A stretch of 64,000 nucleotides of DNA, taken from the IMG/VR virus record IMGVR_UViG_3300025759_000075, positions 1 through 64,000 of that record, one strand, 5' to 3'. The DNA comes from an uncultured virus (IMG/VR IMGVR_UViG_3300025759_000075) (Duplodnaviria > Heunggongvirae > Uroviricota > Caudoviricetes). Below, piece after piece: positions 10,744 through 60,782 of this stretch. The position numbers and the translations under genes are program-made. Numbering within the stretch: the first letter of the stretch is position 1; each line of letters starts with the position of its first letter. The notes below the pieces were generated by a model, which saw nothing but the letters and a program-made list of their open reading frames with translations, searched no databases and was not told the origin of the DNA.

Positions 10744-10875
10744 TGCCGGGGCTTGTCCGTCGTCTGGTCGATACTGGCATGTCCTATCAGCAGGCCCAGC
10801 AGTTCAGCGACCTGTCTGGAAGCGACATTGCGACACCAGTTACATAACTTGCGACGGAAAATGAAAGGAACTGAC

Positions 10876-11025
10876 ATGACTACGAAGAAAGAACAGGAAA
10901 AGATCGACAACGACGACAACGGCCTTGCCGATCGCATGAAGACGATGGACCCGCGCTTCGATGAGAAGGGTAAGCCCGTCGAAGAGGAAAAGAAGGAAGG
11001 TCAGACCAAGACCGCCAGCAAATAG
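10876..11025 (+). CDS. Small charged protein (MTTKKEQEKID...)
   Basis: AAGGA SD; conserved at 51862-52017. Confidence 0.7.
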   Translation: MTTKKEQEKIDNDDNGLADRMKTMDPRFDEKGKPVEEEKKEGQTKTASK

Positions 11026-11034
11026 GAGGCTGTC

Positions 11035-12626: not shown

Positions 12627-12639
12627 GAGGGGATAGGAC

Positions 12640-13650: not shown

Positions 13651-13666
13651 CCGAGAGGATTGAAAA

Positions 13667-13984
13667 ATGGTTACTTCACCTTTCCGCACCACTGGCCAGC
13701 TTGGCCCCGATCTGCACCAACAGGTCACTCCGGGCGAAGTCTGGTACGATAACCCGGATCTCGTCAGCCCCGTCGTGGGCACGCGGGAAACCGGCGATGA
13801 TGGCTTCGATTATGTCTGGGTTCGCGCCTCGGCAAACGTCGCAGCAGCATCGGCTCCGGGCACGCAGGTATCGATCACGGTTCCTGCCTACACTGCGGCT
13901 GCAGGCGCGGGCGGTTTCTACGCTCCGATTGCAGGCGTAACGTCCGGCGATTACTTTTGGGCCAAGAAGGGCTCAACACTTTGA
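13667..13984 (+). CDS. Putative capsid decoration/minor virion protein
   Basis: Follows capsid, precedes terminator; near-identical in phage B. Confidence 0.6.
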   Translation: MVTSPFRTTGQLGPDLHQQVTPGEVWYDNPDLVSPVVGTRETGDDGFDYVWVRASANVAAASAPGTQVSITVPAYTAAAGAGGFYAPIAGVTSGDYFWAKKGSTL

Positions 13985-13992
13985 TCGTCACG

Positions 13993-14023
13993 CGGGGGAG
14001 GTTTCGGCTTCCCCCGTTATTTT
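13993..14023 (+). terminator. Rho-independent terminator after capsid genes
   Basis: CGGGGGAGGT-TTCG-GCTTCCCCCG followed by TTATTTT. Confidence 0.8.
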
Positions 14024-14044
14024 CTCTAATTGGAGCGTCCATCC

Positions 14045-14779
14045 ATGACTGAAGCCGTACTTATCGACGAACGTGACCTTCAGGTCACTCCCATGTTCAA
14101 GGTCATCCAGGTCGAAGACATCAACGCCTCGGAACGCGAAGGCCACCTCGTGATGAAAACTCGCGAAGTGGTCGAAGTCCGCATTGCCGGCGCGCGCGAT
14201 GTGAAGGTGTTTCCCTCGGATGAAGTCTGGCGCCGCGAAGGCAATAGGGCGATTACCTATGCCGAACGCTGGCCTGAACAATACGCCACCTATCACAACG
14301 GCGACACGCAGCAGGCGCTAGGCACGCCGCTGGAAATGCTGCGCCCCTATGGCATCTCGGAATCGATGGTTTCGGTCTGCCGCGCGCTCAAGATTTATTC
14401 GGTTGAGGCCCTGTATGCTCTAGAGGGTGCGGGTCTCAAGGCGCTCGGTATGAACGGCAATCGGCTAAAGGACGCGGCCCGTCAGTTCATGGCCGAGCGC
14501 CAATCTTCTGTCAGCGCCATGTCGGAAGTCGAAGCCCTGAAGGCTCGCATTGCCGAACTGGAAGCCAATGGTTCGAAGGTGGACATTCCCGCCGAATTGC
14601 CTACTGATGCAGAGATGGATGCGGCGGTGGCTGCTTCCGATGCGGAGTTTGCGGATATGAGCGACGAGGCAATCAAGGAAGAGATCGGGAAGCTTGCCGG
14701 ATCCAAACCCCGCGGAACTCCTTCGCGCTCGACACTTGAAAACTCCTTGCGCGAACTTCGCGCTGCAAAGGCTGCTTAA
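14045..14779 (+). CDS. Conserved phage protein of unknown function
   Basis: Homolog at 55006-55740; typical position after capsid genes. Confidence 0.75.
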   Translation: MTEAVLIDERDLQVTPMFKVIQVEDINASEREGHLVMKTREVVEVRIAGARDVKVFPSDEVWRREGNRAITYAERWPEQYATYHNGDTQQALGTPLEMLRPYGISESMVSVCRALKIYSVEALYALEGAGLKALGMNGNRLKDAARQFMAERQSSVSAMSEVEALKARIAELEANGSKVDIPAELPTDAEMDAAVAASDAEFADMSDEAIKEEIGKLAGSKPRGTPSRSTLENSLRELRAAKAA

Positions 14780-15502
14780 ATGACGGTGCTTGCGGCCCTC
14801 CAAAAGGCTAGTATCAGGCTAGTGGGTCGCAAGCCCAATACGTTCTTTGGCGCCAAGGGTCAGTTCGAACTTGAATTGACCGACCTTGTTAACGAGGTGG
14901 CGCAGGACATTGCCCAGTATCAGGATTGGCAGGAACTTGTCCGCATAGGCACGGTGACGGGCGATGGCGTGGCAACCGATTTCGATCTGCCGACCGATTA
15001 CAGTCGCTTTCCCGTCAAGGGTGCCATTCAGGACTATACGAATTGGGCTTGGGGATATTTCCACTATCAGGACCTCGACACGTTCTTGTATGATGAAGCG
15101 CGCAACTTCAATGCACTGCCGGGTGGCTGGATCATCTACGGCAATTTGATGCGTTTCTCGCCTGCTCCTGCAACGGATGCGCAGGCCAAATTCCCTTACA
15201 TCACGAAGAACATCGTGCGGGATTTCTCAACCAACACGAAAGAGGAATTCACCGATGACCGCGATGAGTTCCTGCTGCCCGAACGCCTGCTGACGCTGGG
15301 CCTCGTGTGGAGGTGGAGGGAGAATAAGAAACTTGATTCCACTGGCGACCAAGAGGCATTCATCAAGGCTCTGGACGAATACGCTGCCAAGTCGGGCGGC
15401 CCTGTGGTTATCCGTCGCAATGGCGCCCGCGGTATCCCCGGTACGCATCCGGCCTATCCTTGGGAACTTGGACAGGGCGCTAACTACTGGCCCGTCGGCT
15501 GA
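14780..15502 (+). CDS. Head-tail adaptor protein
   Basis: Size and position; F.LP.DY...FSPAP pattern. Confidence 0.7.
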   Translation: MTVLAALQKASIRLVGRKPNTFFGAKGQFELELTDLVNEVAQDIAQYQDWQELVRIGTVTGDGVATDFDLPTDYSRFPVKGAIQDYTNWAWGYFHYQDLDTFLYDEARNFNALPGGWIIYGNLMRFSPAPATDAQAKFPYITKNIVRDFSTNTKEEFTDDRDEFLLPERLLTLGLVWRWRENKKLDSTGDQEAFIKALDEYAAKSGGPVVIRRNGARGIPGTHPAYPWELGQGANYWPVG

Positions 15503-17415
15503 TGGTGTACGCACGCCGCCAGTCGCGGCCTAAGCCCCGCCAAGCCCAAACCCGTAAATGGCCCGCCCCTGTGGCCGGCTGGGTTTCCAACAGGATGCTT
15601 TCTGATCCCAAGTCGATCGAAGGCCCTGGCGCTGCGGTGTTGGACAACTTCTTCCCCCGTGCAACTGGTGTGGCCTTTCGCCGCGGGAAAGCACGTTACG
15701 CCACGCTTGAGAATGACACGCTGGATGTGCAGGCGCTGTTTACCTATGACAATGGCACAAATGAAAGCCTGTTTGCTGCCAATGCAAGCACGATCTATGA
15801 CATTTCGGATGTGATATTCCCTGAAGCGCTCGACATTACCGACGGCGATGGCGATGCACTGGTTGACGATCTGGGCAATATAATCGGATGGAGTTCGACC
15901 GAAGGACTGGACCGCGCCACTGGCTACACGTCGGGCGATTGGTCCGTTATCCAGTTTGCCACCACGGGCGGGATATTCCTTGTTGGCGTAAATGGATCGG
16001 ACATCGGCTTCATCTATGACGGGACCAACTTCTACCCGAACGTCGTGGGCGGCACGACACAGGTCAATTATGACGGCCTGACCGATGATTTCACGCCGGG
16101 CGAGGTTATTACGGGCGGCACAAGCGGGGCCACAGGCACGCTATGGCAGCAGAAGTCTGCGACCGATACGACGGGCCAACTGTTCCTGATCGATGTCACA
16201 GGCACATTTGAAGACGATGAAGAACTGACCGGCGCGACCACTGGCGTTGCTGATGTTATCGGTGATCCGGTAATTGCGGCTCCGGGCATGGATTTTGGCG
16301 CTTACACGTCTGCCGATATGTCTTTCGTGTGGTCCTACAAGAACCGCCTGTATTTCACCCAGAACGATAGCCTGACGGCTTGGTATCTGCCTGTCGATCA
16401 GATTGGCGGCACGGCAAGCGCGTTCCCTATGGGCGGCATTTTCGCCAATGGCGGCTATCTCATGTTCGGACAACGCTGGTCGCTTGAAGCGGGCGGGTCC
16501 GGCGGCCTTTCCGAACAGAACATCTTCGTGTCGTCTGAAGGCGAGGTCGCAATTTATCAGGGCACGTCACCCGATGAACCTTCAACGTGGTCGCTGGTGG
16601 GGGTCTATCGGATTGGAAACCCGCTCGGGAAACGCGCCTACCTTCGCGGCGGCGGTGACTTGGCCATCGCCACGTCTGTCGGTCTTGTTCCCTTGTCGAA
16701 GGCTATTTCGCTGGATGTGACTGCGCTCAACGTGGGCACGATCAGTTACAAGATCGCCGATGCATGGACTGAAGCCGTGCAACTGCGTGGACAGCAGAAC
16801 TGGCAGTGCATGATCTGGCCCGAAAAGAAATTGGCCGCGATTGCTTTGCCCGACATGATCGGCTCCAGCGATCCCGTCATGTTCATTTCGAACACTGAAA
16901 CAGGCGCATGGGCACGCTATACCAACTGGCAGGGACTTTCTCTGGCAGTGTTCCGCGGGCAACTTTATTTCGGATCCACGGGCGGCAAGGTATATCAGGC
17001 CGAGGTTGGCGGGCAGGACGACGGGGAAACCTATTCCGGTGCCGTTGTGCCGCTGTTCGATGACCTTGAGTTTTCGGCCGGTGCCAAGGTTGGCAAGATG
17101 GCCCGGGCTCGCGTGCGTGCCTCGACCGAGATCGTGGACAATGTTTCCCTGCTGGCCGATTACAACGTGGACCTTCCTCCCGCTCCCGATGCGACGGGCG
17201 TGTTCGCTTCCAACACTTGGGGCGCAGCCGTTTGGGGTGAGGCGACGTGGGGTGCTGCGGTGCCGAGCGTTATTAATCAGGAATGGCGATCGGCAGGGGC
17301 AGTGGGATATTCGATTGCGCCCTGCTACCAGGTGACCAGCGGAGCCCCTGCGCCTCTGGACGTAGAATTGATCGACATCGATATTCTCTACAACACGGCA
17401 GAGGCGGTGACTTGA
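15502..17415 (+). CDS. Tail nozzle / packaged-DNA stabilisation protein
   Basis: Beta-rich 637 aa after adaptor; YKNRLYF propeller-like motifs. Confidence 0.7.
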   Translation: MVYARRQSRPKPRQAQTRKWPAPVAGWVSNRMLSDPKSIEGPGAAVLDNFFPRATGVAFRRGKARYATLENDTLDVQALFTYDNGTNESLFAANASTIYDISDVIFPEALDITDGDGDALVDDLGNIIGWSSTEGLDRATGYTSGDWSVIQFATTGGIFLVGVNGSDIGFIYDGTNFYPNVVGGTTQVNYDGLTDDFTPGEVITGGTSGATGTLWQQKSATDTTGQLFLIDVTGTFEDDEELTGATTGVADVIGDPVIAAPGMDFGAYTSADMSFVWSYKNRLYFTQNDSLTAWYLPVDQIGGTASAFPMGGIFANGGYLMFGQRWSLEAGGSGGLSEQNIFVSSEGEVAIYQGTSPDEPSTWSLVGVYRIGNPLGKRAYLRGGGDLAIATSVGLVPLSKAISLDVTALNVGTISYKIADAWTEAVQLRGQQNWQCMIWPEKKLAAIALPDMIGSSDPVMFISNTETGAWARYTNWQGLSLAVFRGQLYFGSTGGKVYQAEVGGQDDGETYSGAVVPLFDDLEFSAGAKVGKMARARVRASTEIVDNVSLLADYNVDLPPAPDATGVFASNTWGAAVWGEATWGAAVPSVINQEWRSAGAVGYSIAPCYQVTSGAPAPLDVELIDIDILYNTAEAVT

Positions 17416-17816
17416 TCGTAACAGGCGACCACGTTGCCCAGTTCGTATCTCAACGGCTAGGCTTTGCTCTCTGTCCTCCCTTTACTGCACTCGGCCTTGA
17501 GCGCGATGGCGCATTGGTCGGCGGGGTCATTTTCAACCAGTTCGAAGGCGCGGACGTGCATGTCTCGGCAGCAGGGTCTTGCTGGACACGCGGCTTTTTG
17601 CGGGCGGTGGGGTCTTATGTGTTCGACCAGATGGGGTGCCTGCGCATGACATTCACGACCGAGCAACCCGATGTAGCGGAGTATGCCAAGCGGCTTGGCG
17701 GTGATGTGGAAGGCGTGCTTCGGGACCATTACGGGGAAGGCCGGGATGGCGTGATTATCGGGGTATTGCGAAAAGATTGGAAATTCGGTAACAAGAGGGC
17801 AACCGAGCGCGGCTGA
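17412..17816 (+). CDS. GNAT-fold acetyltransferase-like protein (TTG start)
   Basis: Y.FDQ.GC.R...RLGG..EG.LRDHYGEGRD; homolog at 58376-58780. Confidence 0.7.
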   Translation: MIVTGDHVAQFVSQRLGFALCPPFTALGLERDGALVGGVIFNQFEGADVHVSAAGSCWTRGFLRAVGSYVFDQMGCLRMTFTTEQPDVAEYAKRLGGDVEGVLRDHYGEGRDGVIIGVLRKDWKFGNKRATERG

Positions 17817-17851
17817 ACCTTACTTCACGCGCTTTCCGTGAATGGAAAGCG
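17766..17851 (+). promoter_or_regulatory. Promoter plus bulged two-hairpin leader, copy 1
   Basis: TTGCGA-17-TAACAA; AGCGCG-GC-TGAA...TTCA-CGCGCT; CGCTTTCC...GGAAAGCG. Confidence 0.55.
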
Positions 17852-17856
17852 AGCAA

Positions 17857-18675
17857 GTGAAGACACCTAAAGCGCCCCCTCCCCCGGATCCAGTAGCGAC
17901 AGCGCAGGCCCAAGCGGGCCTCAATCTGTCAACTGCCATCACGCAGCAGAACCTCAACATGACCGATCAGGTCAATCCTTGGGGAACGACAAGCTACACG
18001 CAGAACGGCAACACGCGATTCCAGGATAGCTTCGGGAATTGGGTGGAGGTTCCACGCTACACCCAGACAACCGAGTTTTCTCCCGAACAGCAGGCGATCT
18101 TCGACAAGTCGCAGGCTGCACAGACGAACCTTGCCGGTATCGCACAGGAACAGTCTGGCCGCGTGTCGGAAGCCTTGGCTGATCCGTTCTCTTTCAACAA
18201 TCAGGACGCAGCAGATTGGGCCTATGACCTTAGCCAGTCTCGCATTGCCCCGCAACAGGCGCAGCAGGAAGCGGCTCTCCGCGACAGGCTGATCAATCAG
18301 GGTATCCGCCCGGGCACAACTGCTTGGGATGCGGAGATGGGCCGTCAGACGCAGGGCTTCAACGACCAGAACAACCAGCTTGCCCTTACGGGTCGCAATC
18401 AGGCATTTTCGGAAGCCCTCGCAACGCGCAATCAGCCGCTTAATGAGTTGTCCGCGCTGCTCTCCGGGTCGCAAGTGTCGAACCCCGCCCAGATGTCTGG
18501 CGCCACTCCACAGGTCGGCGTCGGCGGTGTGGACTATTCCGGTATGGTCCAGAACAACTACAACAACCAGATGCAGCAGTATAATGCGCAGATGCAGAAC
18601 CGCGGCGGTATGCTGGGAGGACTGTTCGGGCTTGCAGGTTCCTTGGGTGGGGCCGCTATTCGAGGAGGTTTCTGA
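17857..18675 (+). CDS. DNA ejection (pilot) protein (GTG start)
   Basis: Q/N/A-rich with glycine-rich hydrophobic C-terminus; position. Confidence 0.65.
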   Translation: MKTPKAPPPPDPVATAQAQAGLNLSTAITQQNLNMTDQVNPWGTTSYTQNGNTRFQDSFGNWVEVPRYTQTTEFSPEQQAIFDKSQAAQTNLAGIAQEQSGRVSEALADPFSFNNQDAADWAYDLSQSRIAPQQAQQEAALRDRLINQGIRPGTTAWDAEMGRQTQGFNDQNNQLALTGRNQAFSEALATRNQPLNELSALLSGSQVSNPAQMSGATPQVGVGGVDYSGMVQNNYNNQMQQYNAQMQNRGGMLGGLFGLAGSLGGAAIRGGF

Positions 18676-19376
18676 TGATCCTCCCCCAAGCAGCAATGGC
18701 CGCAGTCGATCCGGTTGCACAGGCTCTTGCGCCGCCTGAAGCCTTCGTCTGGGGGCACGGCGGGCTCAAGATGACCCCGCAACAGGCCATGATGCAGCGG
18801 GAGCGCGGTATCGCCCGATCGCAAGGTGACTTTTCGCCTATCCAGAATTGGACGCAGGGCTTGGGCCGTGTGGCCGAGAATGTGCTTGGCGCCCTTGAGG
18901 CACGCAAGGCGGATAAGGCTCTTGCTGCAGGTGCGGAAGCCGATCGAGGGCTTGCAGAGGCTATCGCTGCTGGAGGTGTGGATGATGCCACCATTGCCCG
19001 GGCGCTGATGGATCCGAATGTGGGTCAGGGCGTGCGCGAATTCGCGGGCATGGAATATGCGGCACGTAGGCCAAAGGCGGCGGCTCCTACCAACATCGAA
19101 AAGCTTATGATCTCGCGCGGCATTCAGCCCGGTTCGCCGGAATGGAATCGCACGCTTGACGCGGCCCTGCAGAACGAAACCGATCCGTTCGTGACGTTCC
19201 AGGGTCCGACCTATGGTTATACCGGCAGGCAATCTGGTCTTGCCGCTGCAATGCAGGGAGGAGGTGGTCCGGTATCTGGAGCGCAGCCGGGTGGTGAGCC
19301 CCCGGCAGTGCTTCCCCCTGACTTTGACTTCGGGGAAGGAGGTCAGGCGTCCGCGCCTGATCCCTTTCGGCGCTAG
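18675..19376 (+). CDS. Internal virion / ejection protein
   Basis: Position in ejection cluster; homolog at 59636-60400. Confidence 0.65.
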   Translation: MILPQAAMAAVDPVAQALAPPEAFVWGHGGLKMTPQQAMMQRERGIARSQGDFSPIQNWTQGLGRVAENVLGALEARKADKALAAGAEADRGLAEAIAAGGVDDATIARALMDPNVGQGVREFAGMEYAARRPKAAAPTNIEKLMISRGIQPGSPEWNRTLDAALQNETDPFVTFQGPTYGYTGRQSGLAAAMQGGGGPVSGAQPGGEPPAVLPPDFDFGEGGQASAPDPFRR

Positions 19377-19383
19377 CGGCTCA

Positions 19384-19755
19384 ATGCTTGATAACATCAC
19401 CGCTCAGACCGAGAGCAACAACCGCAACTATGCCAACGGCCGGCCTGTGACCTCGCCTGCGGGGGCTATGTTCGCCATGCAGGTTATGCCTGCGACTGCG
19501 CGTGACCCCGGGTTTGGGTTGCGCCCCGCCAATCCGAGTGATGCAAACGACATGAACCGCCTTGGCCGTGAATATCGCGCCAAGATGGAGCAGCGCTACG
19601 GCGGCGATCTTAGCAAGATGTGGGGAGCCTATAACGCAGGGCCGGGGCGTGTAGACGATCTCATTCGCCAATACGGCAATGATTGGCTAAGGTATGCCCC
19701 CGCTGAAACTCGCAATTATGTGTCCAAAAACATTCGCGCTCTAAGGGGCAAGTAA
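19384..19755 (+). CDS. Lytic transglycosylase (SLT) domain, probably expressed as a +1 frameshift fusion
   Basis: ES catalytic motif, SP.GA...MQVMPATA, AYNAGPGRV, ETRNYV. Confidence 0.85.
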   Translation: MLDNITAQTESNNRNYANGRPVTSPAGAMFAMQVMPATARDPGFGLRPANPSDANDMNRLGREYRAKMEQRYGGDLSKMWGAYNAGPGRVDDLIRQYGNDWLRYAPAETRNYVSKNIRALRGK

Positions 19756-22556
19756 TGCCGACAAAGACTTATCAGGGCTACACCTACGAACAGCAGGCAG
19801 ACGGCAGCTGGGCGCGCATTGGTTCCGCTTCCGCACAGGGCGCGGTGTTCCAGACCAATCCGAACGCCTCTGCCGAACAGGCGCGCGAAGATGAGCGCCT
19901 GCGCAATGAGCGTCGGCGTCTGCAGATCACCGAAGACAATGCAATGCGCCAAGCGGAAAAGGACCGTATTGCGTTAGACAAGGATTCGGCTGAAGTCGCT
20001 CAGAAGGATAAAGAATCGGCAGCCTTGGAGGCTGCGCAGCGCGCACAGGTTCGCGAGACTGCGGCCACCATGCGCACGGTCATCGAGAAAGCCAAGCAGG
20101 CTAAGGCGCGGTCTAACGACTGGTTTGCCACAGGGTTTGGCGCAGAGACGGCTTTGGGGATAGGTGGTAGCGCAGCGCAGGATGTGCGTGAACTTCTGGC
20201 GCCGATAAAAGCCAATCAGGCATTCACGACTTTGCAGAAGATGCGTGAGGCTTCGCCTACTGGCGGTGCTTTGGGTGCGGTTTCCGAACGTGAACTGGCA
20301 TTGCTACAAAGCACGATCACAGGTCTTGAGCAGACGCAATCTGATGCGCAATTCCAATATGCGATGGATGAAGTTGTCCAGCGCTACACCCGCGCGCTTG
20401 CTGCGCTTGAAGATTCGGACAGGTATTACCGCGAGAACGGCTCGCTTGAAGGATATGTCGGGCCTTCGGAAGAATACCTTAACAGCTACAACCCGAGCGA
20501 TCCCAAGCCCGCCACTGCAGCAGGACAGGGTGCTACACAGACAAGCCTAGAACTGCCGCAGGAATACCAGGATCGGCACGCGGCCTATCTGCGCGAGAAC
20601 TGGGGCAACATCACGCCCGACGGCTATGCGCAATTCCGTGCGGGGCTCGATAACCAATTCTCAGACGTGGCATCGCCTAATATCGAAGCCTATCGCGACA
20701 TTGTTCCTGCCCTCAACCAGATGGCGGCGGAAGGCCAACCTCCTGAAGCGGCCGGACAAGTTCCGCCTGCGGTGCGCGATCTCTCGGGCAGCGAACAAGC
20801 GGTAAACGATTTCGTCACAAGCCCGTTCGGCACCGGCGCCACATCAGCGATCAACAGCGCCACGTTCGGCATTCCTGATGCTTTGGCTGGCCGGCGCCTT
20901 CAGGCTGCGCAGGAACTCAACCCCAAATCTGCCTTTGCCGGTGACTTCTTGGGTGGCGCTGTAGGCTCCGCTCTAGGGGGCACAGGACTTGCGGCAGCTG
21001 GTGTAGGGCGTGCGGCACCTTTCCTTGGCGATGCGCTCTACGGGACCACATACGGCGCTCTGAGTGATGAAGACCCTGTAACGGGCGCCCTGATCGGTCT
21101 GGGTTCGTCTATCGTGGGCGATCAGGTGGGCAAGTATGCGGGGCGCGGCATCAATTCGCTTCGCGCTCCTGAAAATGCACTGAGTGAAGGCCAGCAGGCT
21201 ATCACGCAGACTGTTCGCCAAGCGGATAATCAGGACGTCATTGCGCAGGCTTTAATGCAGGCGCGCGATCTTGGTGTGCCGATGACGCTGGCCGATGCTT
21301 CGCCGGAACTGCAGTCTCTTGCCGGTTCCGCTGCTCGTTTCTCGCCTACCACGGCCGGCACGGCGCGCTCGGTCATGGCAACCCGCAATCAAGGGCAAAT
21401 CGATCGACTGGCTGAAGCGGTGGCGCGCGACCTTGGCCCTGTCGAGAACATCCCGCAGCGCAGCGCCGACCTGATGCAGCAGGCTCGCACGAATGCAGGG
21501 CCGTTGTATGACGCGGCCTATTCAGCCCCGGGCGCTGAGATGGTGGACCTTGGCGACCTTGCTGACCGTCCGACCTTTGAAGCGGCCTTGCGTGAGGCAT
21601 ATAACGAGGTCCTTGATGAAGGTCTGGATCCGTCTGCAGTTGGATTGCAGGGTGTTGGCGATAGTGTAGTGCTGGCTCAACCGTCATGGCAGGCCCTCGA
21701 CTATGCCAAGCGTGGGCTCGACAATATCATTGAATCGAACACTGATATTTCAGGCAAGGTTTCTCCTGCGGGCCGCCGTGCGTTGCAGATGAAGAATGAC
21801 CTTCTTTCCCGCATGGATGCCGCAAACCCGGATTATGCTGCTGCCCGTCAGGCTTTCGCAGGACCAGCGCAAGAGCGCGCGTTTATGCAGCGCGGGACAG
21901 AGGCCTACAACACCCGCCCTGATCAGCTTGGCGTCGATACTGCTAACCTGACGCCCGAACAGCGCCAGCAGATGCAGCTTGGCTTTCAATCGGAAGTAAT
22001 GGGCCGTGCGGGCAACCTTCGCGGAAACACAAATCCATGGGGGCAATTGAACACGCCAAACATGGAAGGGCGCATGGGGGCACTCTATGGCGAAGATGCA
22101 GACATTGCCCGTTTACTGACGCAGCGCGACCTTGAATTGCAACTGGCCGGCAGCGCCAATCGTCTGATTGGTAATAGCGCCACGGCCGAGCGCGAGATTG
22201 CCGACGAGTTCTTCAAGAAACGGAACGGCATGGGAGGCGATGTCGCTATGGGTATTGTCGAGACAGGCGCTCTAGGTGGTCCTTGGCTGACTGTCGGCAA
22301 GGGCATTGCTGACCGTGTATTCAAGGACAAGCGCGAAGCCGCGGCTGCTGCTGCCAATCGTTCGCTTGCCGATGACCTTGGCCCGCTCTTGCTCGATCAG
22401 AACCCGCAAGGGGCGGTTGATTCCCTGTCGTCCATGATGGCACAGGATGCTGAGTATCGCGCTATCGTGGAAGCGCTGACCAATCAGGGCGATAAGTGGG
22501 GCCGCCGGGCTGGAATGGGCCTTAGCACTGCAACTACGGACAGGATTGCTTACTAA
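19755..22556 (+). CDS. Large DNA ejection / transfer protein
   Basis: 933 aa alanine-rich helical; SPTGGALGAVSERE motif; position. Confidence 0.7.
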   Translation: MPTKTYQGYTYEQQADGSWARIGSASAQGAVFQTNPNASAEQAREDERLRNERRRLQITEDNAMRQAEKDRIALDKDSAEVAQKDKESAALEAAQRAQVRETAATMRTVIEKAKQAKARSNDWFATGFGAETALGIGGSAAQDVRELLAPIKANQAFTTLQKMREASPTGGALGAVSERELALLQSTITGLEQTQSDAQFQYAMDEVVQRYTRALAALEDSDRYYRENGSLEGYVGPSEEYLNSYNPSDPKPATAAGQGATQTSLELPQEYQDRHAAYLRENWGNITPDGYAQFRAGLDNQFSDVASPNIEAYRDIVPALNQMAAEGQPPEAAGQVPPAVRDLSGSEQAVNDFVTSPFGTGATSAINSATFGIPDALAGRRLQAAQELNPKSAFAGDFLGGAVGSALGGTGLAAAGVGRAAPFLGDALYGTTYGALSDEDPVTGALIGLGSSIVGDQVGKYAGRGINSLRAPENALSEGQQAITQTVRQADNQDVIAQALMQARDLGVPMTLADASPELQSLAGSAARFSPTTAGTARSVMATRNQGQIDRLAEAVARDLGPVENIPQRSADLMQQARTNAGPLYDAAYSAPGAEMVDLGDLADRPTFEAALREAYNEVLDEGLDPSAVGLQGVGDSVVLAQPSWQALDYAKRGLDNIIESNTDISGKVSPAGRRALQMKNDLLSRMDAANPDYAAARQAFAGPAQERAFMQRGTEAYNTRPDQLGVDTANLTPEQRQQMQLGFQSEVMGRAGNLRGNTNPWGQLNTPNMEGRMGALYGEDADIARLLTQRDLELQLAGSANRLIGNSATAEREIADEFFKKRNGMGGDVAMGIVETGALGGPWLTVGKGIADRVFKDKREAAAAAANRSLADDLGPLLLDQNPQGAVDSLSSMMAQDAEYRAIVEALTNQGDKWGRRAGMGLSTATTDRIAY

Positions 22557-22819
22557 GCGAAGGCGTTAAGAACGGCGACAATTCCAAGCGCCGCCACCGC
22601 CCAAGGCACAAGCATGAATTCCATTCGATCGGATGCCGCCCGATAGCCTGCGAGAAACGCTAGCTGGCGATCCTTCTGGCGGTATGTCTTGGAGGCTTGC
22701 TCAAGGGCTTTGCGCTCATGGCGTGACCTTAGATATTTCTCGGAATCCAGTTCGCTGAACCGTGCGCGCTGCAGTTCCTGCTCAATCTGCGCAATGGTGT
22801 GTTTCGGAGCCGGTTCCAT
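22553..22819 (-). CDS. Small antisense protein with C-terminal transmembrane helix
   Basis: Homolog at 63515-63778 (IE.E..RARF.E...AFLAGY.A). Confidence 0.65.
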   Translation of the reverse strand: MEPAPKHTIAQIEQELQRARFSELDSEKYLRSRHERKALEQASKTYRQKDRQLAFLAGYRAASDRMEFMLVPWAVAALGIVAVLNAFA

Positions 22820-22826
22820 GCCCCTA

Positions 22827-22916
22827 TTGCTAGCACACCGCCTTTGATGTAACAAGCACATGAGAAATTGCGCGGTTGAATTTACCTCACGCGCTTGTGT
22901 TCCAACGCAAGCGGAG
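22827..22916 (+). promoter_or_regulatory. Promoter plus bulged two-hairpin leader, copy 2
   Basis: TTGCTA-17-TAACAA; GCGCG-GT-TGA...TCA-CGCGC; CGCTTGTGTT...AACGCAAGCG. Confidence 0.55.
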
Positions 22917-22924
22917 TTTGGCCT

Positions 22925-23707
22925 GTGCCAAGAGATTCAAACGGCGACTATGATCTTCCCCCGGGTAGTATAGTCAATACTGGGGATGACGTTCTTCCCA
23001 GCCAGCACAATCCACCCCTGCAAGACCTGGCGCAAGCCATGGGCAATTCCCTCGACCGCGACGGTAAGGGCGGGATGCGTGCCGATCTACCGATGAATGG
23101 CAACAAGATCACCGACGTTGCACCGGGGACCAATCCCACGGACGTGGCGACGGTAAGCCAGATCGTAGGTGGTTCGAATATTCCTATCGGCGTGGTGGTG
23201 GACTTTTGGGGCTCAACTCCCCCTGAAAACTATCTGTTCGCCGCGGGGCAAGAGGTCAGCCGTTCGACGTATGCTGCCCTGTTTGCCGTTATCGGAACAA
23301 ATGCAGGCGCAGGGGACGGTTCCACGACATTCAATCTTCCCGATTACCGCGGCAGGATCGGTGCTGGACGTGAAAGCATGGCTACACCTGCCACGACGCG
23401 CCTCAACACACTGTCATCGTCTACCTTGGGGGCGGCAGGTGGTGCCCAGACGCACACTCTGACTGAAGCGCAGATGCCAGCGCACAATCACTCGGTTACA
23501 GATCCCGGCCACACGCATTCCTATCAGCGCGCCACGGTACAGGGCAATGTCGGCGCGGAAGGGGGTATCACTTCTTCGACCACTGTCACTTCTGCCAGCA
23601 CGGTCAGCGCCACAACCGGCATTACCATCGCCAGCAAGGGCGGCGGCGAAGCGCACAACAACGTGCAGCCTACTATCATTTGCAATAAAATTATCAGGAT
23701 AGCATAG
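22925..23707 (+). CDS. Tail fibre protein with tail-collar domain (GTG start)
   Basis: P.G........P..YL...GQ.VSR..YA.LFAVIG...GDGSTTFNLPD.RGR and AHNNVQP motifs. Confidence 0.85.
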   Translation: MPRDSNGDYDLPPGSIVNTGDDVLPSQHNPPLQDLAQAMGNSLDRDGKGGMRADLPMNGNKITDVAPGTNPTDVATVSQIVGGSNIPIGVVVDFWGSTPPENYLFAAGQEVSRSTYAALFAVIGTNAGAGDGSTTFNLPDYRGRIGAGRESMATPATTRLNTLSSSTLGAAGGAQTHTLTEAQMPAHNHSVTDPGHTHSYQRATVQGNVGAEGGITSSTTVTSASTVSATTGITIASKGGGEAHNNVQPTIICNKIIRIA

Positions 23708-23708
23708 C

Positions 23709-25787
23709 ATGGCGACCATTCGACCAGACGACCTTCCTGCCGCCTCTACGGTAAGCAACACCGACGCGTTTGTAGTAGACCGGGGTAGTGCAGTCCAAAA
23801 GGCTACGCCTTCGCAGATCGTCGATGCAGCAACCCCTCTCGCTTCACAAGCTGAGGCTGAGGCTGGAACAGACAATGCCAAGCGCGTCACCCCTTTGCGG
23901 GTTAAGCAGGCTATCGATGCGATTGGTATCTCTGCGGATTCGCTGGCAGCTGGATTAGCCACCAAGGCTGACGCAGCCGCGACCACTGCCGCCCTTTCGG
24001 TAAAAGTCACCGCAACAGCGGCAAAAAGCGACGTTGCCAACCTCGGCGCATCCGGCCCTCGCACGGTCACGCTTGGCGGCGATAACTTCGACCGTTCATC
24101 CAGCGACCTTTCTGCATGGGTCGATCGAGATCCTACGAACAGCGTAATCATCCCCTTTGCCAGCGACACCACGGGCGCATCGGGCGGTTATGTTCGCAGG
24201 GGTCCGTGGGCGCTTGGGACCGTCTATGCAACATGGTTCGGGTTTGTGGCCGACAGCACGGGCGCGGCAGGCAACGGAACGGATAACACTGCTGCACTTC
24301 AGGCCGCCATTGATTTTGTGTGTCCTTTTATCTGGCAGGGCGGAACCCGCGCAACCGAATTGCAGGGAAGCTTTTCGGGTGAGGTAATCCTGCCCAAAGG
24401 CATCGGGCGCATCACCGACAAGATCAAGCTTGCTCCAAACCTTTCCCTTCGCGGGCAGGGATGTGCAAACGACTGGACAGTCCGCACGGGTATTGCAGGG
24501 GTAGCATCTGGCACCGAGCGCATGGGTAGCGCACTGTTCTGCGATATCAACGATTTTACCACATACGCTCTCGACACATGCCCTTACGATAATACAGGCG
24601 TTCGCCTCGACGACACTACGGTAGAGGGTGGAGACAGCTCAAGCGGACTCAAGACGCAGGTTTCGAACGTCCAGATTTCCGCCCTGACGATTTACGGCAA
24701 CTGGACGTGCAAGGGCGTGAACCTCGCGGGCGCGGAAAGCTGCAAGATCGCAAGCGACGTGCTTATTCGCGGATTTACAGTAGGCGTGCGATGTTCTGCG
24801 ACATGGTACGCTAAAATCTACTGCCGCATCCTTCACAATTGGCGCGGTCTCATCGGCTATCTGTCGGGCACGGATATTGATATTTCCGGCGCTTCGTTCT
24901 GGAAGCCTGTCGAGGCTCCTGTCTACGATCCTGCGGTTAGTGGGTATGACGGCACCGAACCGACGATCGATGCTTGGTGGACGGCAGCGGCCCTGAAGCG
25001 CACCGCGCATATCTTCAACTTCTACTGCAACATTACGGGCACGAATGTCGGCGCCGAGCTTGGCGATGTGATGTTCATGTCGAAGAACGGCGTTGCCAAC
25101 CTCACCGGGATTTACACCGAAGGCGCAACCTTCACGACCATATTCACCGAAGGCCCGGACCAGCAGAACGAGTTCTACCAGTTCGATACGACAGTTTCGG
25201 CCAGTGTGCCGCTGCTCTATTCGAAGAATGCGCGCATTCAGGTCGATGTAGCCCACCACAACAACCAGAACGGATATTCTGCGGTTATCGGCGATCTGGT
25301 CAACTCGATCGGCTACGAAGGCTTGCCCGTCCTTAATGGGGTCAAGCTGACCGGCTCGGACGTGTTTACCGATCCGAGCATCGCTTATGGCGGGTTGCGT
25401 CAGTATCAAGGGCCATGGTCGCCCGTTCCCAAGTTCGGCGGCACGGCAGGGGATAGCGGGAGCGGCACGAAAACAGGCCGCTGGGTGCGCATCGGCAACA
25501 CGGTGACTGTGTGGGGCTACGTCACGATCCAGACGCTCAACGGCGCTGCATCGGGCGCGTTCACCATCGATGGCCTGCCCTTTGTAATCCGCAACGTTTT
25601 TGGTCTCGACTCCTGTGCCGATGTTGCTTTCTCTTTCGGCACGCCGGCTCTCACAAAAGGACGCGGGGAAGCTGGCGGATATGCTATCAAGTTCGATGGC
25701 ATCACGAAAACCGGCTTTTCCAGCGGTGCTGACATTCGTTTCCAGATGACCTATGAAACGACAGAACTAGGCCCATGGGGATGGTAA
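23709..25787 (+). CDS. Tailspike / receptor-binding protein with pectate-lyase-like beta-helix
   Basis: WFG..AD...TDNTAALQAAID...V.LP.G motif; ASQAEAEAGTDN.K.VTPL fibre repeat. Confidence 0.75.
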   Translation: MATIRPDDLPAASTVSNTDAFVVDRGSAVQKATPSQIVDAATPLASQAEAEAGTDNAKRVTPLRVKQAIDAIGISADSLAAGLATKADAAATTAALSVKVTATAAKSDVANLGASGPRTVTLGGDNFDRSSSDLSAWVDRDPTNSVIIPFASDTTGASGGYVRRGPWALGTVYATWFGFVADSTGAAGNGTDNTAALQAAIDFVCPFIWQGGTRATELQGSFSGEVILPKGIGRITDKIKLAPNLSLRGQGCANDWTVRTGIAGVASGTERMGSALFCDINDFTTYALDTCPYDNTGVRLDDTTVEGGDSSSGLKTQVSNVQISALTIYGNWTCKGVNLAGAESCKIASDVLIRGFTVGVRCSATWYAKIYCRILHNWRGLIGYLSGTDIDISGASFWKPVEAPVYDPAVSGYDGTEPTIDAWWTAAALKRTAHIFNFYCNITGTNVGAELGDVMFMSKNGVANLTGIYTEGATFTTIFTEGPDQQNEFYQFDTTVSASVPLLYSKNARIQVDVAHHNNQNGYSAVIGDLVNSIGYEGLPVLNGVKLTGSDVFTDPSIAYGGLRQYQGPWSPVPKFGGTAGDSGSGTKTGRWVRIGNTVTVWGYVTIQTLNGAASGAFTIDGLPFVIRNVFGLDSCADVAFSFGTPALTKGRGEAGGYAIKFDGITKTGFSSGADIRFQMTYETTELGPWGW

Positions 25788-58817: not shown

Positions 58818-59636
58818 TTGAAATCTCCTAAGCAGCCAACTCCGCCAGATCCTAACGTGGTCGCGCAAGCCCAAGCCGGGATGAACATCGACACGGCTCT
58901 TGCTCAGCAGAGCCTCAACATGGTTGATACGGTGAACCCGTGGGGCACGACCAGCTATGCGCAAAACGGCCAGACAAGCTTTGTCGATAGCAACGGTCAG
59001 CGCGTTACGCTGCCGCGCTATACCCAAACCACTAACTTATCGCCAGAACAACAGGCGATTTTCGACGCCTCGCAGGGCGCGCAGACGAACCTTGCCAATA
59101 TCGCGCAGGAACAGTCTGGCCGTGTGCAGGAAACTCTTTCCGACCCGTTCCAGTTTACCAATCAGGATGCAGCCGATTGGGCCTATGATCTGGGCCAGTC
59201 ACGCATTGCTCCCCAGCAGCAGCAGACCGAAGCCGCGCTTCGTGATCGGCTGATCAATTCCGGCATTCGCCCCGGCACACAGGCTTGGGATTCGGAGATG
59301 GCCCGCATGACGCAGGGCTTTAACGATCAGAACAACCAGTTAGCTTTGCAGGGCCGTGGACAGGCGTTTTCCGAGAACCTTGCCACGCGGAATCAGTCGC
59401 TTAATGAGTTGTCCGCGCTACTCTCCGGCTCGCAGGTATCGAACCCTGCGCAGATGTCGTCTGCCACGCCTCAAGTAGGGGTCGGTGGGGTCGATTATTC
59501 CGGCATGGTCCAGAACAATTACAACAACCAGATGCAGCAGTATAACGCCCAGATGCAAAATCGCGGCGGTATGCTCGGTGGCTTATTTGGCTTGGCAGGC
59601 TCGCTTGGCGGCGCTGCTATTCGAAGGGGTTTCTGA
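58818..59636 (+). CDS. DNA ejection (pilot) protein (phage B; TTG start)
   Basis: Homolog of 17857-18675. Confidence 0.65.
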   Translation: MKSPKQPTPPDPNVVAQAQAGMNIDTALAQQSLNMVDTVNPWGTTSYAQNGQTSFVDSNGQRVTLPRYTQTTNLSPEQQAIFDASQGAQTNLANIAQEQSGRVQETLSDPFQFTNQDAADWAYDLGQSRIAPQQQQTEAALRDRLINSGIRPGTQAWDSEMARMTQGFNDQNNQLALQGRGQAFSENLATRNQSLNELSALLSGSQVSNPAQMSSATPQVGVGGVDYSGMVQNNYNNQMQQYNAQMQNRGGMLGGLFGLAGSLGGAAIRRGF

Positions 59637-60400
59637 TGATCCTCCCACAGTCTGCAATGGCCGCAGTCGATCCCGTAGCGCAGGCTTTGACGCCTGAAGC
59701 CGCGTTCACTTGGGCGCATGGTGGCTTGAAGATGACGCCGGAACAAGCGGCAATGCAGCGTCAACAGGGTATGGCGCGTAGCCGGGGTGATTACTCGCCT
59801 ATCCAGCATTGGACACAGGGCCTTGCGCGTGTGGCGGATAACGTCATGGGTGCACTAGAGGCACGTAAAGCCGACAAGCAGATTGCAGCGGGTGCAGATG
59901 CAGACCGCGCGCTGATGGAAGCGATTGCGGGCGGTGGTGTGGATGACACCATGATCGCCCGCGCACTAATGGACCCTAATGTAGGGCAGGGCGTGAAAGA
60001 GTTTGCGGGCATGGAGTATGCCGCGCGTAGGCCCAAGCAACAGGCTCCGCTAGAGGTTGAGCGGCTAGCTATGCTGGCGAACGATCCCAGCGCAGCGCCT
60101 TACGTGCGCGAGGCAGCAGCGGCCAAGCTTCGCAATCAAAACGATCCGCTTATCACAACGACCTTGCCGGGTGACAGGTTCTATTCGGGGCCGCAATCCG
60201 GTCTGGCAGCAGCATTGGGAGGAGGTGGTCAAGAATCTGGGGCACAGTCTACGGCGGTGCCTCCCGAGGCGGTGGCGGACCTAATGGCCGATCCGTCACC
60301 GCAGGCTATGGCAGAGTTTGATGACGCATTCGGACAGGGTGCGGCAGAGCGCGCTCTAGGAGGTCAGGCGTCCGCGCCTGATCCCTTTCCCGCAAGTTAG
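59636..60400 (+). CDS. Internal virion / ejection protein (phage B)
   Basis: Homolog of 18675-19376. Confidence 0.65.
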   Translation: MILPQSAMAAVDPVAQALTPEAAFTWAHGGLKMTPEQAAMQRQQGMARSRGDYSPIQHWTQGLARVADNVMGALEARKADKQIAAGADADRALMEAIAGGGVDDTMIARALMDPNVGQGVKEFAGMEYAARRPKQQAPLEVERLAMLANDPSAAPYVREAAAAKLRNQNDPLITTTLPGDRFYSGPQSGLAAALGGGGQESGAQSTAVPPEAVADLMADPSPQAMAEFDDAFGQGAAERALGGQASAPDPFPAS

Positions 60401-60407
60401 CGGAAAC

Positions 60408-60782
60408 ATGCTCGACAACATCACTATGCAGGCCGAAAGTAATGGCAGGCGTTATGGTGCAGGCGGTGGACTGCTGCGCTCACCTAAGGGAGCGATGGGG
60501 GAAATGCAGGTAATGCCAGCGACAGCCCGAGATCCCGGCTATGGCGTGCGCCCTTGGGACGGTTCGTCGCCGGATGATCTAGCCCGCGTTGGCCGCGATT
60601 ATCGCAGGGCCATGGAGCGGGAGTTCGGCGGGGACTATGCGGCGATGTTCGGGGCTTATAACGCTGGGCCTGGCCGCGTAAGGCAATTGCTGGATCGTTA
60701 CGGCGGCGACTGGTTGCGCTATGCTCCTGCTGAAACCCGTAACTATGTAAACAAAAACATGCGCGCTCTGAGGGGCAGATAA
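60408..60782 (+). CDS. Lytic transglycosylase (SLT) domain (phage B)
   Basis: AES.G, SPKGAMG.MQVMPATA, AYNAGPGRV, ETRNYV. Confidence 0.85.
   Translation: MLDNITMQAESNGRRYGAGGGLLRSPKGAMGEMQVMPATARDPGYGVRPWDGSSPDDLARVGRDYRRAMEREFGGDYAAMFGAYNAGPGRVRQLLDRYGGDWLRYAPAETRNYVNKNMRALRGR

What the first reader, a model, noticed from the sequence alone, without database searches (positions are those of the whole stretch)
19337..19386. Conserved +1 programmed frameshift fusing an ejection protein to a lytic transglycosylase
Seen: the 32-nt string AGGAGGTCAGGCGTCCGCGCCTGATCCCTTTC is identical at 19337-19368 and 60358-60389, although the flanks differ between the phages. It comprises an SD-like GGAGG, a hairpin TCAGGCG-TCCG-CGCCTGA and in-frame CCC_TTT_C two or three codons before the stop. 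In both phages the +1 frame (TTC...) runs without a stop into the SLT ORF (A: FGASGSMLDNIT; B: FPQVSGNMLDNIT), whose own ATG has no clear SD. Established: UUU_C is a known +1 slippage site for tRNA-Phe. Inference: a minority of the internal virion protein carries a peptidoglycan-cutting domain, with stoichiometry set by frameshifting.
Basis: partly seen in the sequence, partly recalled or inferred. Interest (0 to 1): 0.72.

Follow-up and report, generated by a model that had tools for sequence, protein, structure and literature searches.

The report
Conserved +1 frameshift cassette in podophages
Two related phages, and at least 21 relatives, carry a conserved signal that most likely makes ribosomes slip forward one base at a TTT codon, so that an internal virion protein gains a cell-wall-cutting domain; no report of this was found.

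Summary
The 32-mer is exact at 19337-19368 and 60358-60389, in two related ~40-kb podophage genomes that lie in tandem in one IMG/VR record.

In 188 related loci I found 23 distinct junctions with the same cassette:
- GGAGG lies 22-28 nt upstream of the shift codon.
- A 7-9 bp GC-rich hairpin follows, with 15 different stem sequences. In a 10-sequence subset 70 of 70 positions pair and 5 of 7 pairs carry compensatory changes.
- A 3-6 nt spacer separates the hairpin from the Phe codon.
- The Phe codon is always TTT (23 of 23, against a 28-30% background) and is followed by C (21) or T (2).
- The 0-frame stop comes 0-4 codons later.

The +1 frame always runs into a wall-hydrolase domain: SLT (13), M15-type peptidase (9) or unknown (1). 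In 5 junctions no ATG, GTG or TTG precedes the catalytic motifs, so independent initiation cannot make the enzyme. Two relatives have the hydrolase in frame and still keep the cassette. None has it in the −1 phase.

Most likely this is a programmed +1 slip of tRNA-Phe (UUU to UUC) driven by a two-part 5′ stimulator. Efficiency, stoichiometry and the role of GGAGG remain inferred.

The parts
18675..19376 (+). Phage A upstream ORF (233 aa): helical internal-virion-type protein with a disordered Gly/Pro/Ala-rich C-terminal linker; 0 frame
   Evidence: ORF list and translation. No Pfam or PHROG hit. AlphaFold model: helices at 35-194, last ~40 residues without secondary structure. The family has 1486 representatives at E<=1e-3.
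19338..19342 (+). GGAGG (Shine-Dalgarno-like), encodes Gly-Gly as GGA GGT
   Evidence: Present 22-28 nt upstream of TTT in 23 of 23 cassettes. GGA GGN makes up only 17 of 142 Gly-Gly dicodons in the window's ORFs.
19343..19360 (+). 7-bp hairpin TCAGGCG-tccg-CGCCTGA; its 3' arm ends 4 nt before TTT
   Evidence: MFE -11.3 kcal/mol. Only 0.2% of 1000 synonymous recodings are as stable. There are 15 distinct stems among 23 relatives, with covariation.
19365..19368 (+). Shift site TTT_C (Phe231 of the 0 frame); proposed UUU to UUC re-pairing of tRNA-Phe
   Evidence: TTT in 23 of 23 cassettes, next base C (21) or T (2). It is the only in-frame TTTC across both ORFs.
19374..19376 (+). 0-frame stop TAG, two codons after the shift codon
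   Evidence: Relatives stop 0-4 codons after TTT.
19366..19755 (+). +1 frame from TTC through the linker into the SLT lytic transglycosylase domain (own ATG at 19384; stop 19753-19755 overlaps the start of the next gene)
   Evidence: PF01464 SLT 41.4 bits against a cut-off of 21.3. Matches Slt70-family chains at E 4e-6. PHROG hits.
59636..60400 (+). Phage B upstream ORF (254 aa), homologue of the phage A ORF (60% identity)
60359..60389 (+). Phage B cassette: GGAGG 60359-60363, hairpin 60364-60381, TTT_C 60386-60389
60398..60400 (+). Phage B 0-frame stop TAG, three codons after TTT
60387..60782 (+). Phage B +1 frame from TTC into the SLT domain (own ATG at 60408)
   Evidence: PF01464 37.2 bits. 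Frames.
19755..22556 (+). Context: next gene (933 aa), a large internal-virion-type protein whose ATG overlaps the SLT stop
   Evidence: phrog_5880 and phrog_24864. The phage B homologue 60782-63538 also hits phrog_2534 'released from the phage upon host infection'. Overlap seen.

Best explanation
This is a programmed +1 ribosomal frameshift cassette at the 3' end of an internal virion protein gene.

Proposed mechanism: while the UUU Phe codon is in the P site, tRNA-Phe (anticodon GAA) re-pairs one base forward on UUC (or UUU when the next base is U). Translation then continues in the +1 frame through a short Gly/Ala/Ser/Pro linker into a peptidoglycan hydrolase domain. In the window this gives a 359-aa fusion of the 233-aa protein, up to Phe231, with a lytic transglycosylase. 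Ribosomes that do not shift stop 0-4 codons later and make the short protein.

The shift is probably promoted by a two-part 5' element: a Shine-Dalgarno-like GGAGG followed at once by a 7-9 bp GC-rich hairpin whose 3' arm ends 3-6 nt before UUU, next to the E-site codon. Hairpin refolding behind the ribosome, possibly anchored by GGAGG pairing with 16S rRNA, would act like the internal SD duplex of prfB.

Shown here: the anatomy; the conservation and covariation of all cassette parts; the +1 phase; the lack of start codons in some relatives; and the in-frame natural fusions.

Inferred: that the shift really happens, its efficiency, how the two stimulators act, and that the fusion is packaged and cuts the wall during DNA ejection.
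For: 1. All 188 fetched loci were classified: 24 distinct junctions matched a Gly-Gly...Phe C-terminus pattern, 30 were distinct junctions of other types, 84 had an ORF that ran off the locus, and 50 were duplicates. One of the 24 (L068) is a false match, which leaves 23.

2. In 23 of 23 the Phe codon is TTT, followed by C (21) or T (2, TTT_TGA). The background TTT share is 124 of 450 Phe codons in the window's ORFs and 48 of 160 other Phe codons in the same 23 upstream ORFs.

3. GGAGG lies 22 nt (7 junctions), 25 nt (15) or 28 nt (1) before TTT in 23 of 23.

4. All 23 have a hairpin of 7-9 bp, starting 0-1 nt after GGAGG and ending 3-6 nt before TTT, with 15 distinct stems.
- For the 17 tested, synonymous recodings were as stable in only 0.1-8.3% of 1000 trials, and in <=5% for 14 of 17.
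- In 10 cassettes of one geometry, 70 of 70 cells pair, 5 of 7 pairs changed on both sides, and 0 of 500 shuffles reach this.

5. The +1 frame is open from the shift site into a hydrolase in 23 of 23 (L081's ORF runs off its locus after 28 aa).
- SLT in 13: 7 were scanned and score above the Pfam cut-off, 4 are assigned by 61-85% identity to the window's SLT, and 2 score just below the cut-off.
- M15_3-type in 9: 6 above the cut-off, 1 just below, 2 by motif only.
- Unknown in 1.

6. The first ATG, GTG or TTG in the +1 frame lies after the start of the domain in L031 (+35), L094 (+25), L102 (+34) and L095 (+67), and there is none in the 28 codons available for L081. L007 and L013 lack the ATG of the window's SLT ORF but keep the L-D-A-I-T residues before their first ATG.

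7. Natural in-frame fusions exist at the same join. L014 (308 aa) has PF08291 at 24.2 bits. L131 and P0106 are also in frame, and P0088 has PF08291 at 23.6 bits. Both in-frame loci keep the SD-like motif, the hairpin and TTT_Y, and their +1 frame stops after 12 and 2 codons.

8. No locus has a detectable hydrolase in the −1 phase.

9. The Phe is invariant in 27 of 27 aligned homologues. 71 of 148 representative proteins (at 50% identity) end in GG-x5-10-F-x0-5.

10. Literature.
- UUU_Ynn is +1 shift-prone in bacteria; used examples are YopN-TyeA, FseA and influenza UCC_UUU_CGU (passages of PMC5009743).
- Engineered GC hairpins next to the E site stimulate +1 shifting in yeast and in E. coli lysate, and mimic an internal SD (PMC3639245 passages; PMC6321510 abstract and sections 2.1 and 3.1).
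Against: - There is no protein, ribosome-profiling or reporter evidence.
- In the window's own two phages an ATG lies 8 nt after the 0-frame stop, so a free SLT made by re-initiation is possible there and may coexist with the fusion.
- GGAGG is 22-28 nt from the shift codon, far outside the 3-nt spacing recalled for prfB. Its role therefore depends on the untested idea that the hairpin shortens the path.
- The hairpin would have to re-form very near the mRNA exit.
- The 0-frame codon after TTT is usually common (CGC in 8 of 23 junctions; CGC is 47% of Arg codons in the window). A hungry-codon pause is therefore unlikely, except in the 2 junctions with a stop there.
- The 23 junctions are related, so the counts are not independent events.
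- The junction class was picked by a pattern that requires Gly-Gly and Phe, so only the codon choice, GGAGG, the hairpin and the +1 ORF are tests.
- 84 loci could not be classified.
- DNA for most of the 71 protein clusters could not be fetched.
Confidence: 0.85

Rival explanations
1. There are two separate proteins. Ribosomes terminate at the 0-frame stop and re-initiate at the nearby start of the hydrolase ORF (translational coupling). The conserved GGAGG-hairpin element serves something else, such as ribosome retention for re-initiation or mRNA stability.
For: In the window an ATG lies 8 nt after the stop in both phages, with no SD of its own. 18 of 23 junctions have some ATG, GTG or TTG within 13 codons of the shift site. 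Relatives without a hydrolase couple to the next gene by TAATG or TGATG overlaps.
Against: In L031, L094, L095 and L102 the first start codon lies inside or beyond the catalytic region, and L081 has none in the sequence available. Re-initiation does not explain TTT_Y in 23 of 23 junctions, the exclusive +1 or 0 phase, or the in-frame fusions. Even with the hairpin folded, GGAGG would be more than 20 nt from the restart codon in phage A.
Confidence: 0.08
2. The hairpin and GGAGG are by-products of a conserved C-terminal peptide and of recombination between co-occurring phages. The hydrolase ORFs that lack starts are decaying genes.
For: Phages A and B co-occur in the same runs and share the exact 32-mer. 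The Gly-Gly and Phe residues are also conserved as amino acids.
Against: The peptide between Gly-Gly and Phe differs widely while pairing is kept, through 15 distinct stems. Synonymous recodings of the same peptides rarely fold as well. Codon choice is fixed at TTT and GGA GGN against the background usage. The start-less hydrolase ORFs are intact, 83-127 aa long, and retain their catalytic motifs.
Confidence: 0.04
3. The frame change is an assembly or sequencing error, or comes from transcriptional slippage rather than from the ribosome.
For: The record is a metagenome assembly in which two genomes are joined in tandem.
Against: The same phase is seen in 23 distinct junctions from many assemblies. 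Contigs of three runs show no indel (the runs are not independent of the record). The T run is only 3 bases long, too short for polymerase slippage by established knowledge.
Confidence: 0.01

Closest known systems
E. coli prfB (RF2) programmed +1 frameshift
   Same: The P-site tRNA re-pairs one base forward on an overlapping codon, and a Shine-Dalgarno-like sequence upstream acts as stimulator (mentioned in PMC6321510).
   Different: prfB shifts at CUU_UGA with a stop in the A site and the SD 3 nt upstream (recalled). Here the site is UUU_Y, a stop follows directly in only 2 of 23 junctions, and GGAGG is 22-28 nt away with a hairpin in between. The purpose is a fusion protein, not autoregulation.
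UUU_Y +1 sites: Yersinia YopN-TyeA, Mesorhizobium ICE FseA, influenza A PA-X (UCC_UUU_CGU)
   Same: The same shift-prone tetranucleotide, and the same outcome of fusing two adjacent ORFs (passages of PMC5009743). CCC_UUU_CGG/CGC in the window resembles the influenza cassette.
   Different: In the passages read, none of these is described with a conserved 5' SD-plus-hairpin. None is a phage structural gene.
Engineered upstream refolding hairpins (Cho 2013 PMC3639245; Huang 2018 PMC6321510)
   Same: A GC-rich hairpin placed next to the E site stimulates +1 shifting in yeast and in E. coli lysate, and mimics an internal SD duplex.
   Different: Those are artificial constructs. In the E. coli lysate the effect was seen on CUUUGA and only without RF2. 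The present case would be a natural, evolutionarily conserved use, combined with an SD-like motif.
Structural-protein frameshifts of phages (Listeria phage PSA +1 at CCC_UGA; T3/T7 capsid −1; lambda G-GT −1)
   Same: Two virion or assembly products are made from one gene region by recoding (PMC5009743 passages; lambda and T7 details recalled).
   Different: The gene class, the shift codon and the stimulators all differ. Here the extension is an enzyme domain that is swapped among relatives.
Internal virion proteins with an in-frame wall hydrolase (T7 gp16 type, phiKMV gp36 type, phiEcoM-GJ1-type large virion proteins)
   Same: A virion-borne peptidoglycan hydrolase is joined to an internal or ejected protein. 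The window's SLT hits phrog_342 'internal virion protein with endolysin domain' and positions 1073-1186 of the 1257-position phrog_19855. It also lies inside large virion proteins of other phages.
   Different: In those phages the domain is in frame. Here it is reached only by a +1 shift, except in L014 and L131. The T7 and phiKMV details are recalled.

Membership tests
Programmed +1 ribosomal frameshift site | Two ORFs overlap in the 0/+1 phase, and the downstream one is not expressible on its own. | tested here: met
   The +1 phase holds in 23 of 23 junctions. No ATG, GTG or TTG precedes the catalytic region in L031, L081, L094, L095 and L102. The window's own two phages do have an ATG.
Programmed +1 ribosomal frameshift site | A shift-prone codon on which the P-site tRNA can re-pair in the +1 frame. 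| tested here: met
   TTT followed by C or T in 23 of 23 junctions. UUU_Y is named as +1-prone in PMC5009743.
Programmed +1 ribosomal frameshift site | Conserved cis stimulators under selection at the nucleotide level. | tested here: met
   GGAGG in 23 of 23 junctions. Hairpin with 15 distinct stems, 70 of 70 cells paired and 5 of 7 covarying pairs in one subset. Synonymous-recoding control.
Programmed +1 ribosomal frameshift site | The trans-frame protein is observed and its efficiency measured. | not testable with these tools
   No proteomic or reporter data. No RNA run is listed for the stretch.
Lytic transglycosylase, SLT domain (PF01464, Slt70-like) | A profile match above the curated cut-off, with the family motifs. 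| tested here: met
   41.4 bits (A) and 37.2 bits (B) against a cut-off of 21.3. Slt70-family chains match at E 4e-6, with the MQ(V)MP and AYNAGPG stretches aligned. An E-S pair precedes them; its catalytic role is recalled, not tested.
Peptidase M15 (PF08291), in relatives only | A profile match above the cut-off, with His/Asp/His-x-His metal motifs. | tested here: met
   L025 29.4, L031 28.7, L070 36.9, L132 26.2, L134 36.9 and L137 31.0 bits against a cut-off of 23.2. L128 at 22.8 is just below; L095 and L081 have no hit. The motifs were read by eye.
Podovirus internal virion / ejection protein (upstream ORF) | Homology or fold match to a characterised ejection protein. | tested here: not met
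   No Pfam or PHROG hit. No tblastn hit in 50,697 phage records. No fold match at E<=0.001 in PDB or BFVD. Only the gene order supports the label: adaptor, nozzle-like protein, small proteins, this ORF, then a 933-aa protein.

The most novel reading that the evidence does not exclude
This is a natural, portable +1 recoding cassette. Its stimulator is a composite of an SD:anti-SD duplex and a co-translationally refolding hairpin that abuts the E site, and it works at an ordinary UUU_Y codon without a hungry codon or a stop.

The cassette sets the ratio of a short internal virion protein to an enzyme-tipped long form. Evolution has plugged at least three kinds of hydrolase domain behind it. In two lineages the logic is inverted: the fusion is in frame and the shift gives the short form.
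Probability: 0.45. Interest if true: 0.88.

Novelty: new variant of a known kind. Interest (0 to 1): 0.8.

Why it matters
Programmed +1 frameshifting is rare and its stimulators are poorly understood. A 5' hairpin as a +1 stimulator has so far been shown with engineered constructs. I found no natural case in the searches.

Here a large uncharacterised phage protein family shows a compact 31-37 nt cassette. The family has 1486 representatives at 50% identity, and about half of the top 148 carry the tell-tale C-terminus. The natural sequence variation already amounts to a mutational series: 15 stems, three spacings, and in-frame revertants.

- The cassette offers a direct test of how duplexes at the mRNA exit push the ribosome forward.
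- Gene callers split these genes. The hydrolase ORFs, some without start codons, are mis-annotated or missed, and the real virion protein is a fusion.
- It suggests how podophages dose a wall-cutting enzyme onto an internal protein.

Tried and rejected
- **Upstream protein in phage records.** tblastn against 50,697 phage records gave no match.
- **Fold searches.** Searches with the AlphaFold model of the upstream protein (mean pLDDT 72.9) found nothing at E<=0.001 in PDB or BFVD.
- **Closest isolates.** By the nozzle-like protein these are Brucella phages Pr and Tb (48% identity). In Pr the hydrolase sits inside a 729-aa protein and there is no cassette.
- **Sequencing runs.** No RNA holder is listed.
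- **Earlier findings.** The search of earlier findings returned nothing.
- **Other copies in the window.** The pattern GGAGG-N20-30-TTTC gave 9 matches against 5.3 expected. Only the two known sites have the hairpin.
- **Ideas considered by eye and dropped:**
  - GGAGG pairing with the spacer to lengthen the stem. This is possible in phage A but not conserved in L025 or L031.
  - GGAGG as the SD for an internal start in the +1 frame. L031 has no NTG codon there.
  - Shift on CCC by tRNA-Pro as the general site. The codon before TTT varies.
  - Transcriptional slippage. The T run is only three bases.
  - A hungry A-site codon. CGC is the commonest Arg codon.
- **Literature.** The searches, and passages of PMC10386132 and PMC10885494, gave no report of this frameshift. 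PMC4283147 was seen only as a search listing.
- **Not run.** A structure of the fusion product, and complex prediction.
Full report
**What the window is.** Self-comparison shows two related genomes in tandem. Positions 1-392 repeat at 40124-40515 (97.7% identity), and the blocks 6120-19076 and 20028-22507 align to 47216-60037 and 61010-63489 at 72-81% identity. The window is part of a 75,939-base IMG/VR virus record.

The genes around the finding are, in order:
- an SU10-type adaptor (14780-15502);
- a 637-aa protein of phrog_5107 (15502-17415) that is 48% identical to a structural protein of Brucella phages Pr and Tb;
- small internal proteins;
- the 233-aa ORF 18675-19376;
- the 123-aa SLT ORF 19384-19755;
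- a 933-aa protein.

The homologue of that last protein in phage B hits a PHROG described as 'released from the phage upon host infection'. The upstream ORF itself matches no Pfam or PHROG family.

**Observation.** The 32-mer is exact at both sites and absent from shuffles. Immediately upstream the two phages do not align at all, and downstream they are 68% identical. The 0 frame reads ...CCC TTT and stops 2 codons later in A and 3 codons later in B. The +1 frame from TTC is open into the SLT domain. Contigs of three runs (possible sources, so not independent) show no indel here. They break at the 32-mer because both phages are present and share it.

**Relatives.** I collected 188 loci by protein-guided scans of viral, genome and metagenome contigs, counting the two of the window's own record. 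I classified all of them with one script.

| Class | Loci |
|---|---|
| Distinct junctions matching a Gly-Gly...Phe C-terminus pattern | 24 |
| Other distinct junctions | 30 |
| ORF runs off the locus, not analysable | 84 |
| Duplicates | 50 |

One of the 24 (L068) is a false match: it has no GGAGG, its TTT is followed by G, and its +1 ORF is only 21 codons. The remaining 23 all share one cassette.

**The cassette.**
- GGAGG comes first.
- After 0-1 nt there is a hairpin of 7-9 bp with a 3-5 nt loop.
- A spacer of 3-6 nt follows: 5 nt in 13 junctions, 4 nt in 8, and 3 or 6 nt in one each.
- Then comes TTT, followed by C (21) or T (2).
- The 0-frame stop lies 0-4 codons after TTT.

The distance from GGAGG to TTT is 22 nt (7 junctions), 25 nt (15) or 28 nt (1).

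**Codon choice.** TTT is the minor Phe codon here. It accounts for 124 of 450 Phe codons in the window's 39 long ORFs and 48 of 160 other Phe codons in the same 23 upstream ORFs, yet it is used at this position in 23 of 23 junctions. Gly-Gly is written GGA GGN in only 17 of 142 dicodons in the window, against 23 of 23 here. These counts are not phylogenetically independent. The junctions do, however, differ in stem, linker, tail and enzyme type.

**The hairpin is selected as a structure.**
- There are 15 distinct stem sequences. Examples of 5'/3' arms are TCAGGCG/CGCCTGA, CAGAAGC/GCTTCTG, CCGACGC/GCGTCGG, CAGACGC/GCGTCTG and CGGCGCTG/CGGCGCCG.
- The encoded peptides differ accordingly.
- For the 17 junctions tested, 1000 synonymous recodings of the same peptide reached the observed stability in 0.1-8.3% of trials, and in <=5% for 14 of 17. 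The hairpin ranked among the 0-11 most stable of 216-385 equal-length windows of its own ORF.
- In the 10 cassettes that share one geometry, all 70 pair positions are standard pairs. Five of 7 pairs changed on both sides, 0 of 500 shuffles reach either value, and sliding the partner by 1-3 columns drops pairing to 29-40%.

**What the +1 frame encodes.**
- SLT lytic transglycosylase in 13 junctions. Pfam scores are above the cut-off for the window's A and B and for L007, L013, L033, L037 and L121. L005, L006, L008 and L009 are assigned by 61-85% identity to the window's SLT. L094 and L102 score 21.2 and 20.2 bits against a cut-off of 21.3.
- M15-type peptidase in 9 junctions. L025, L031, L070, L132, L134 and L137 are above the cut-off. 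L128 scores 22.8 against 23.2. L095 and the truncated L081 are assigned by motif only.
- One unknown 112-aa domain (L130).

The same cassette thus sits in front of different enzymes.

**Start codons.** This is the strongest single argument. In the +1 frame after the shift site, the first ATG, GTG or TTG comes at codon +35 in L031 (Pfam match at 8-36), +25 in L094 and +34 in L102 (match at 14-53), and +67 in L095. There is none in the 28 codons available for L081. These enzymes cannot be made whole by ordinary initiation.

In L007 and L013 the ATG of the window's SLT ORF is replaced by Arg or Asp codons, yet the following L-D-A-I-T residues are kept. Conversely, A and L009 lack the second Met. 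No start codon is therefore universal, while the shift site is.

**Phase.** Wherever a recognisable hydrolase follows the homologue, it is in the +1 phase with the cassette (23 junctions) or in frame (2). It is never in the −1 phase. Linker lengths between the shift site and the conserved enzyme core vary by whole codons, for example 3 to 6 codons among the SLT group.

**In-frame variants.**
- L014 encodes a 308-aa protein in which the homologue continues, right after the Gly-Gly...Phe motif, into an M15 domain.
- L131 (and protein P0106) continues into another peptidase-like domain. That domain has no Pfam hit, and its motif was read by eye.
- P0088 is a further in-frame M15 form.
- L014 keeps GGAGG, the CCGACGC/GCGTCGG hairpin and TTT_T. 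L131 keeps GGGAG, a 9-bp hairpin and TTT_C.
- In both loci the +1 frame now stops, after 12 and 2 codons.

Either the cassette is a recent relic, or in these phages the shift makes the short form and standard decoding makes the long one.

**The carrier protein.** With the 27-sequence alignment, AlphaFold gives a helical body (residues 35-194). The last ~40 residues have no secondary structure and a pLDDT of about 50, as expected for a flexible linker. Phe231 is invariant in 27 of 27 homologues. A profile search finds 1486 representatives at E<=1e-3. Of the 148 best, 71 end in GG-x5-10-F-x0-5, including a few likely false matches such as P0142 and P0155. Other members end in unrelated C-terminal domains, and their stop overlaps the next gene's ATG.

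**Mechanism.** Reading the window with TTTC as a single four-base step gives one shift only, at F231, and a 359-aa product.

[quoted passage not shown] It lists YopN-TyeA, the Mesorhizobium ICE activator FseA and influenza UCC_UUU_CGU as used cases. That tRNA-Phe pairs better with UUC is established knowledge.

The 0-frame codon after TTT is mostly a common one: CGN in 12 junctions, CCN in 7, CTC and CAG in one each, and a stop in 2. CGC is 47% of Arg codons in the window. A hungry-codon pause is therefore not the driver, and the 5' element probably is.

Cho et al. 2013 (PMC3639245, passages) and Huang et al. 2018 (PMC6321510, abstract and sections 2.1 and 3.1) showed that an engineered GC hairpin next to the E site stimulates +1 shifting in yeast and in E. 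coli lysate. They describe it as a mimic of the internal SD duplex. In the lysate the effect was measured on the CUUUGA site without RF2.

The natural hairpin here ends 3-6 nt before the shift codon, which is 0-3 nt from the E-site codon. How GGAGG contributes is inference. Folded, the hairpin brings GGAGG close to the exit of the mRNA channel, so an SD:anti-SD duplex could anchor or stack on it.

**Novelty.** Five literature searches and passages of a study of related alphaproteobacterial podophages (PMC10386132) and of a phage frameshift predictor (PMC10885494) gave no report of a frameshift joining an internal virion protein to a wall hydrolase, nor of a natural SD-plus-hairpin +1 stimulator. 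The library lacks most subscription journals, so this is not proof of absence. The paper on UUU-pyrimidine sites was not read; it was seen only as a cited title and its content is recalled.

**Verdict.** Three things remain untested: that the trans-frame protein exists, what fraction of ribosomes shift, and what each stimulator does.

Noticed in passing
window 1-392 and 40124-40515; whole window: The record holds two related ~40-kb phage genomes head to tail, joined at a 392-bp repeat (97.7% identical). Another public record (80,572 bases) holds the same two phages about 39 kb apart, and a third holds two copies of the L009-type phage. These are likely assembly concatemers through terminal repeats of co-occurring strains.
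   Followed up: partly
L014 3640-3760; L131 2299-2390: Two relatives have the hydrolase in frame but keep the SD-like motif, the hairpin and TTT_Y. Their +1 frame stops after 12 and 2 codons, so the roles of the two frames may be inverted.
   Followed up: partly
L130 2336-2671: Behind a standard cassette lies a 112-aa +1 ORF with no Pfam hit. It may be a third kind of wall-acting domain.
   Followed up: no
proteins P0120, P0123, P0144, P0163: Some homologues continue 10-13 residues past the conserved Phe, with a shared P-S-G-N-P-L-like tail in the 0 frame.
   Followed up: no
window 3424-3462 / 4503-4541 and 31023-31059 / 31556-31592: Short direct repeats within phage A: 39 nt at 100% identity and 37 nt at 94.6%. 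Their function is unknown.
   Followed up: no
window 19337-19368 in runs X1, X2, X4: Public de Bruijn contigs end exactly at the 32-mer, because phages A and B share it. The loose ends carry phage B's flanks. The element therefore fragments assemblies of mixed populations.
   Followed up: yes
L070 (Qipengyuania sp. MTN3-11 contig, 22110-25703): A cassette-bearing relative lies inside a 730-kb bacterial contig. This suggests a prophage and an alphaproteobacterial (Sphingomonadales) host for part of the family.
   Followed up: no
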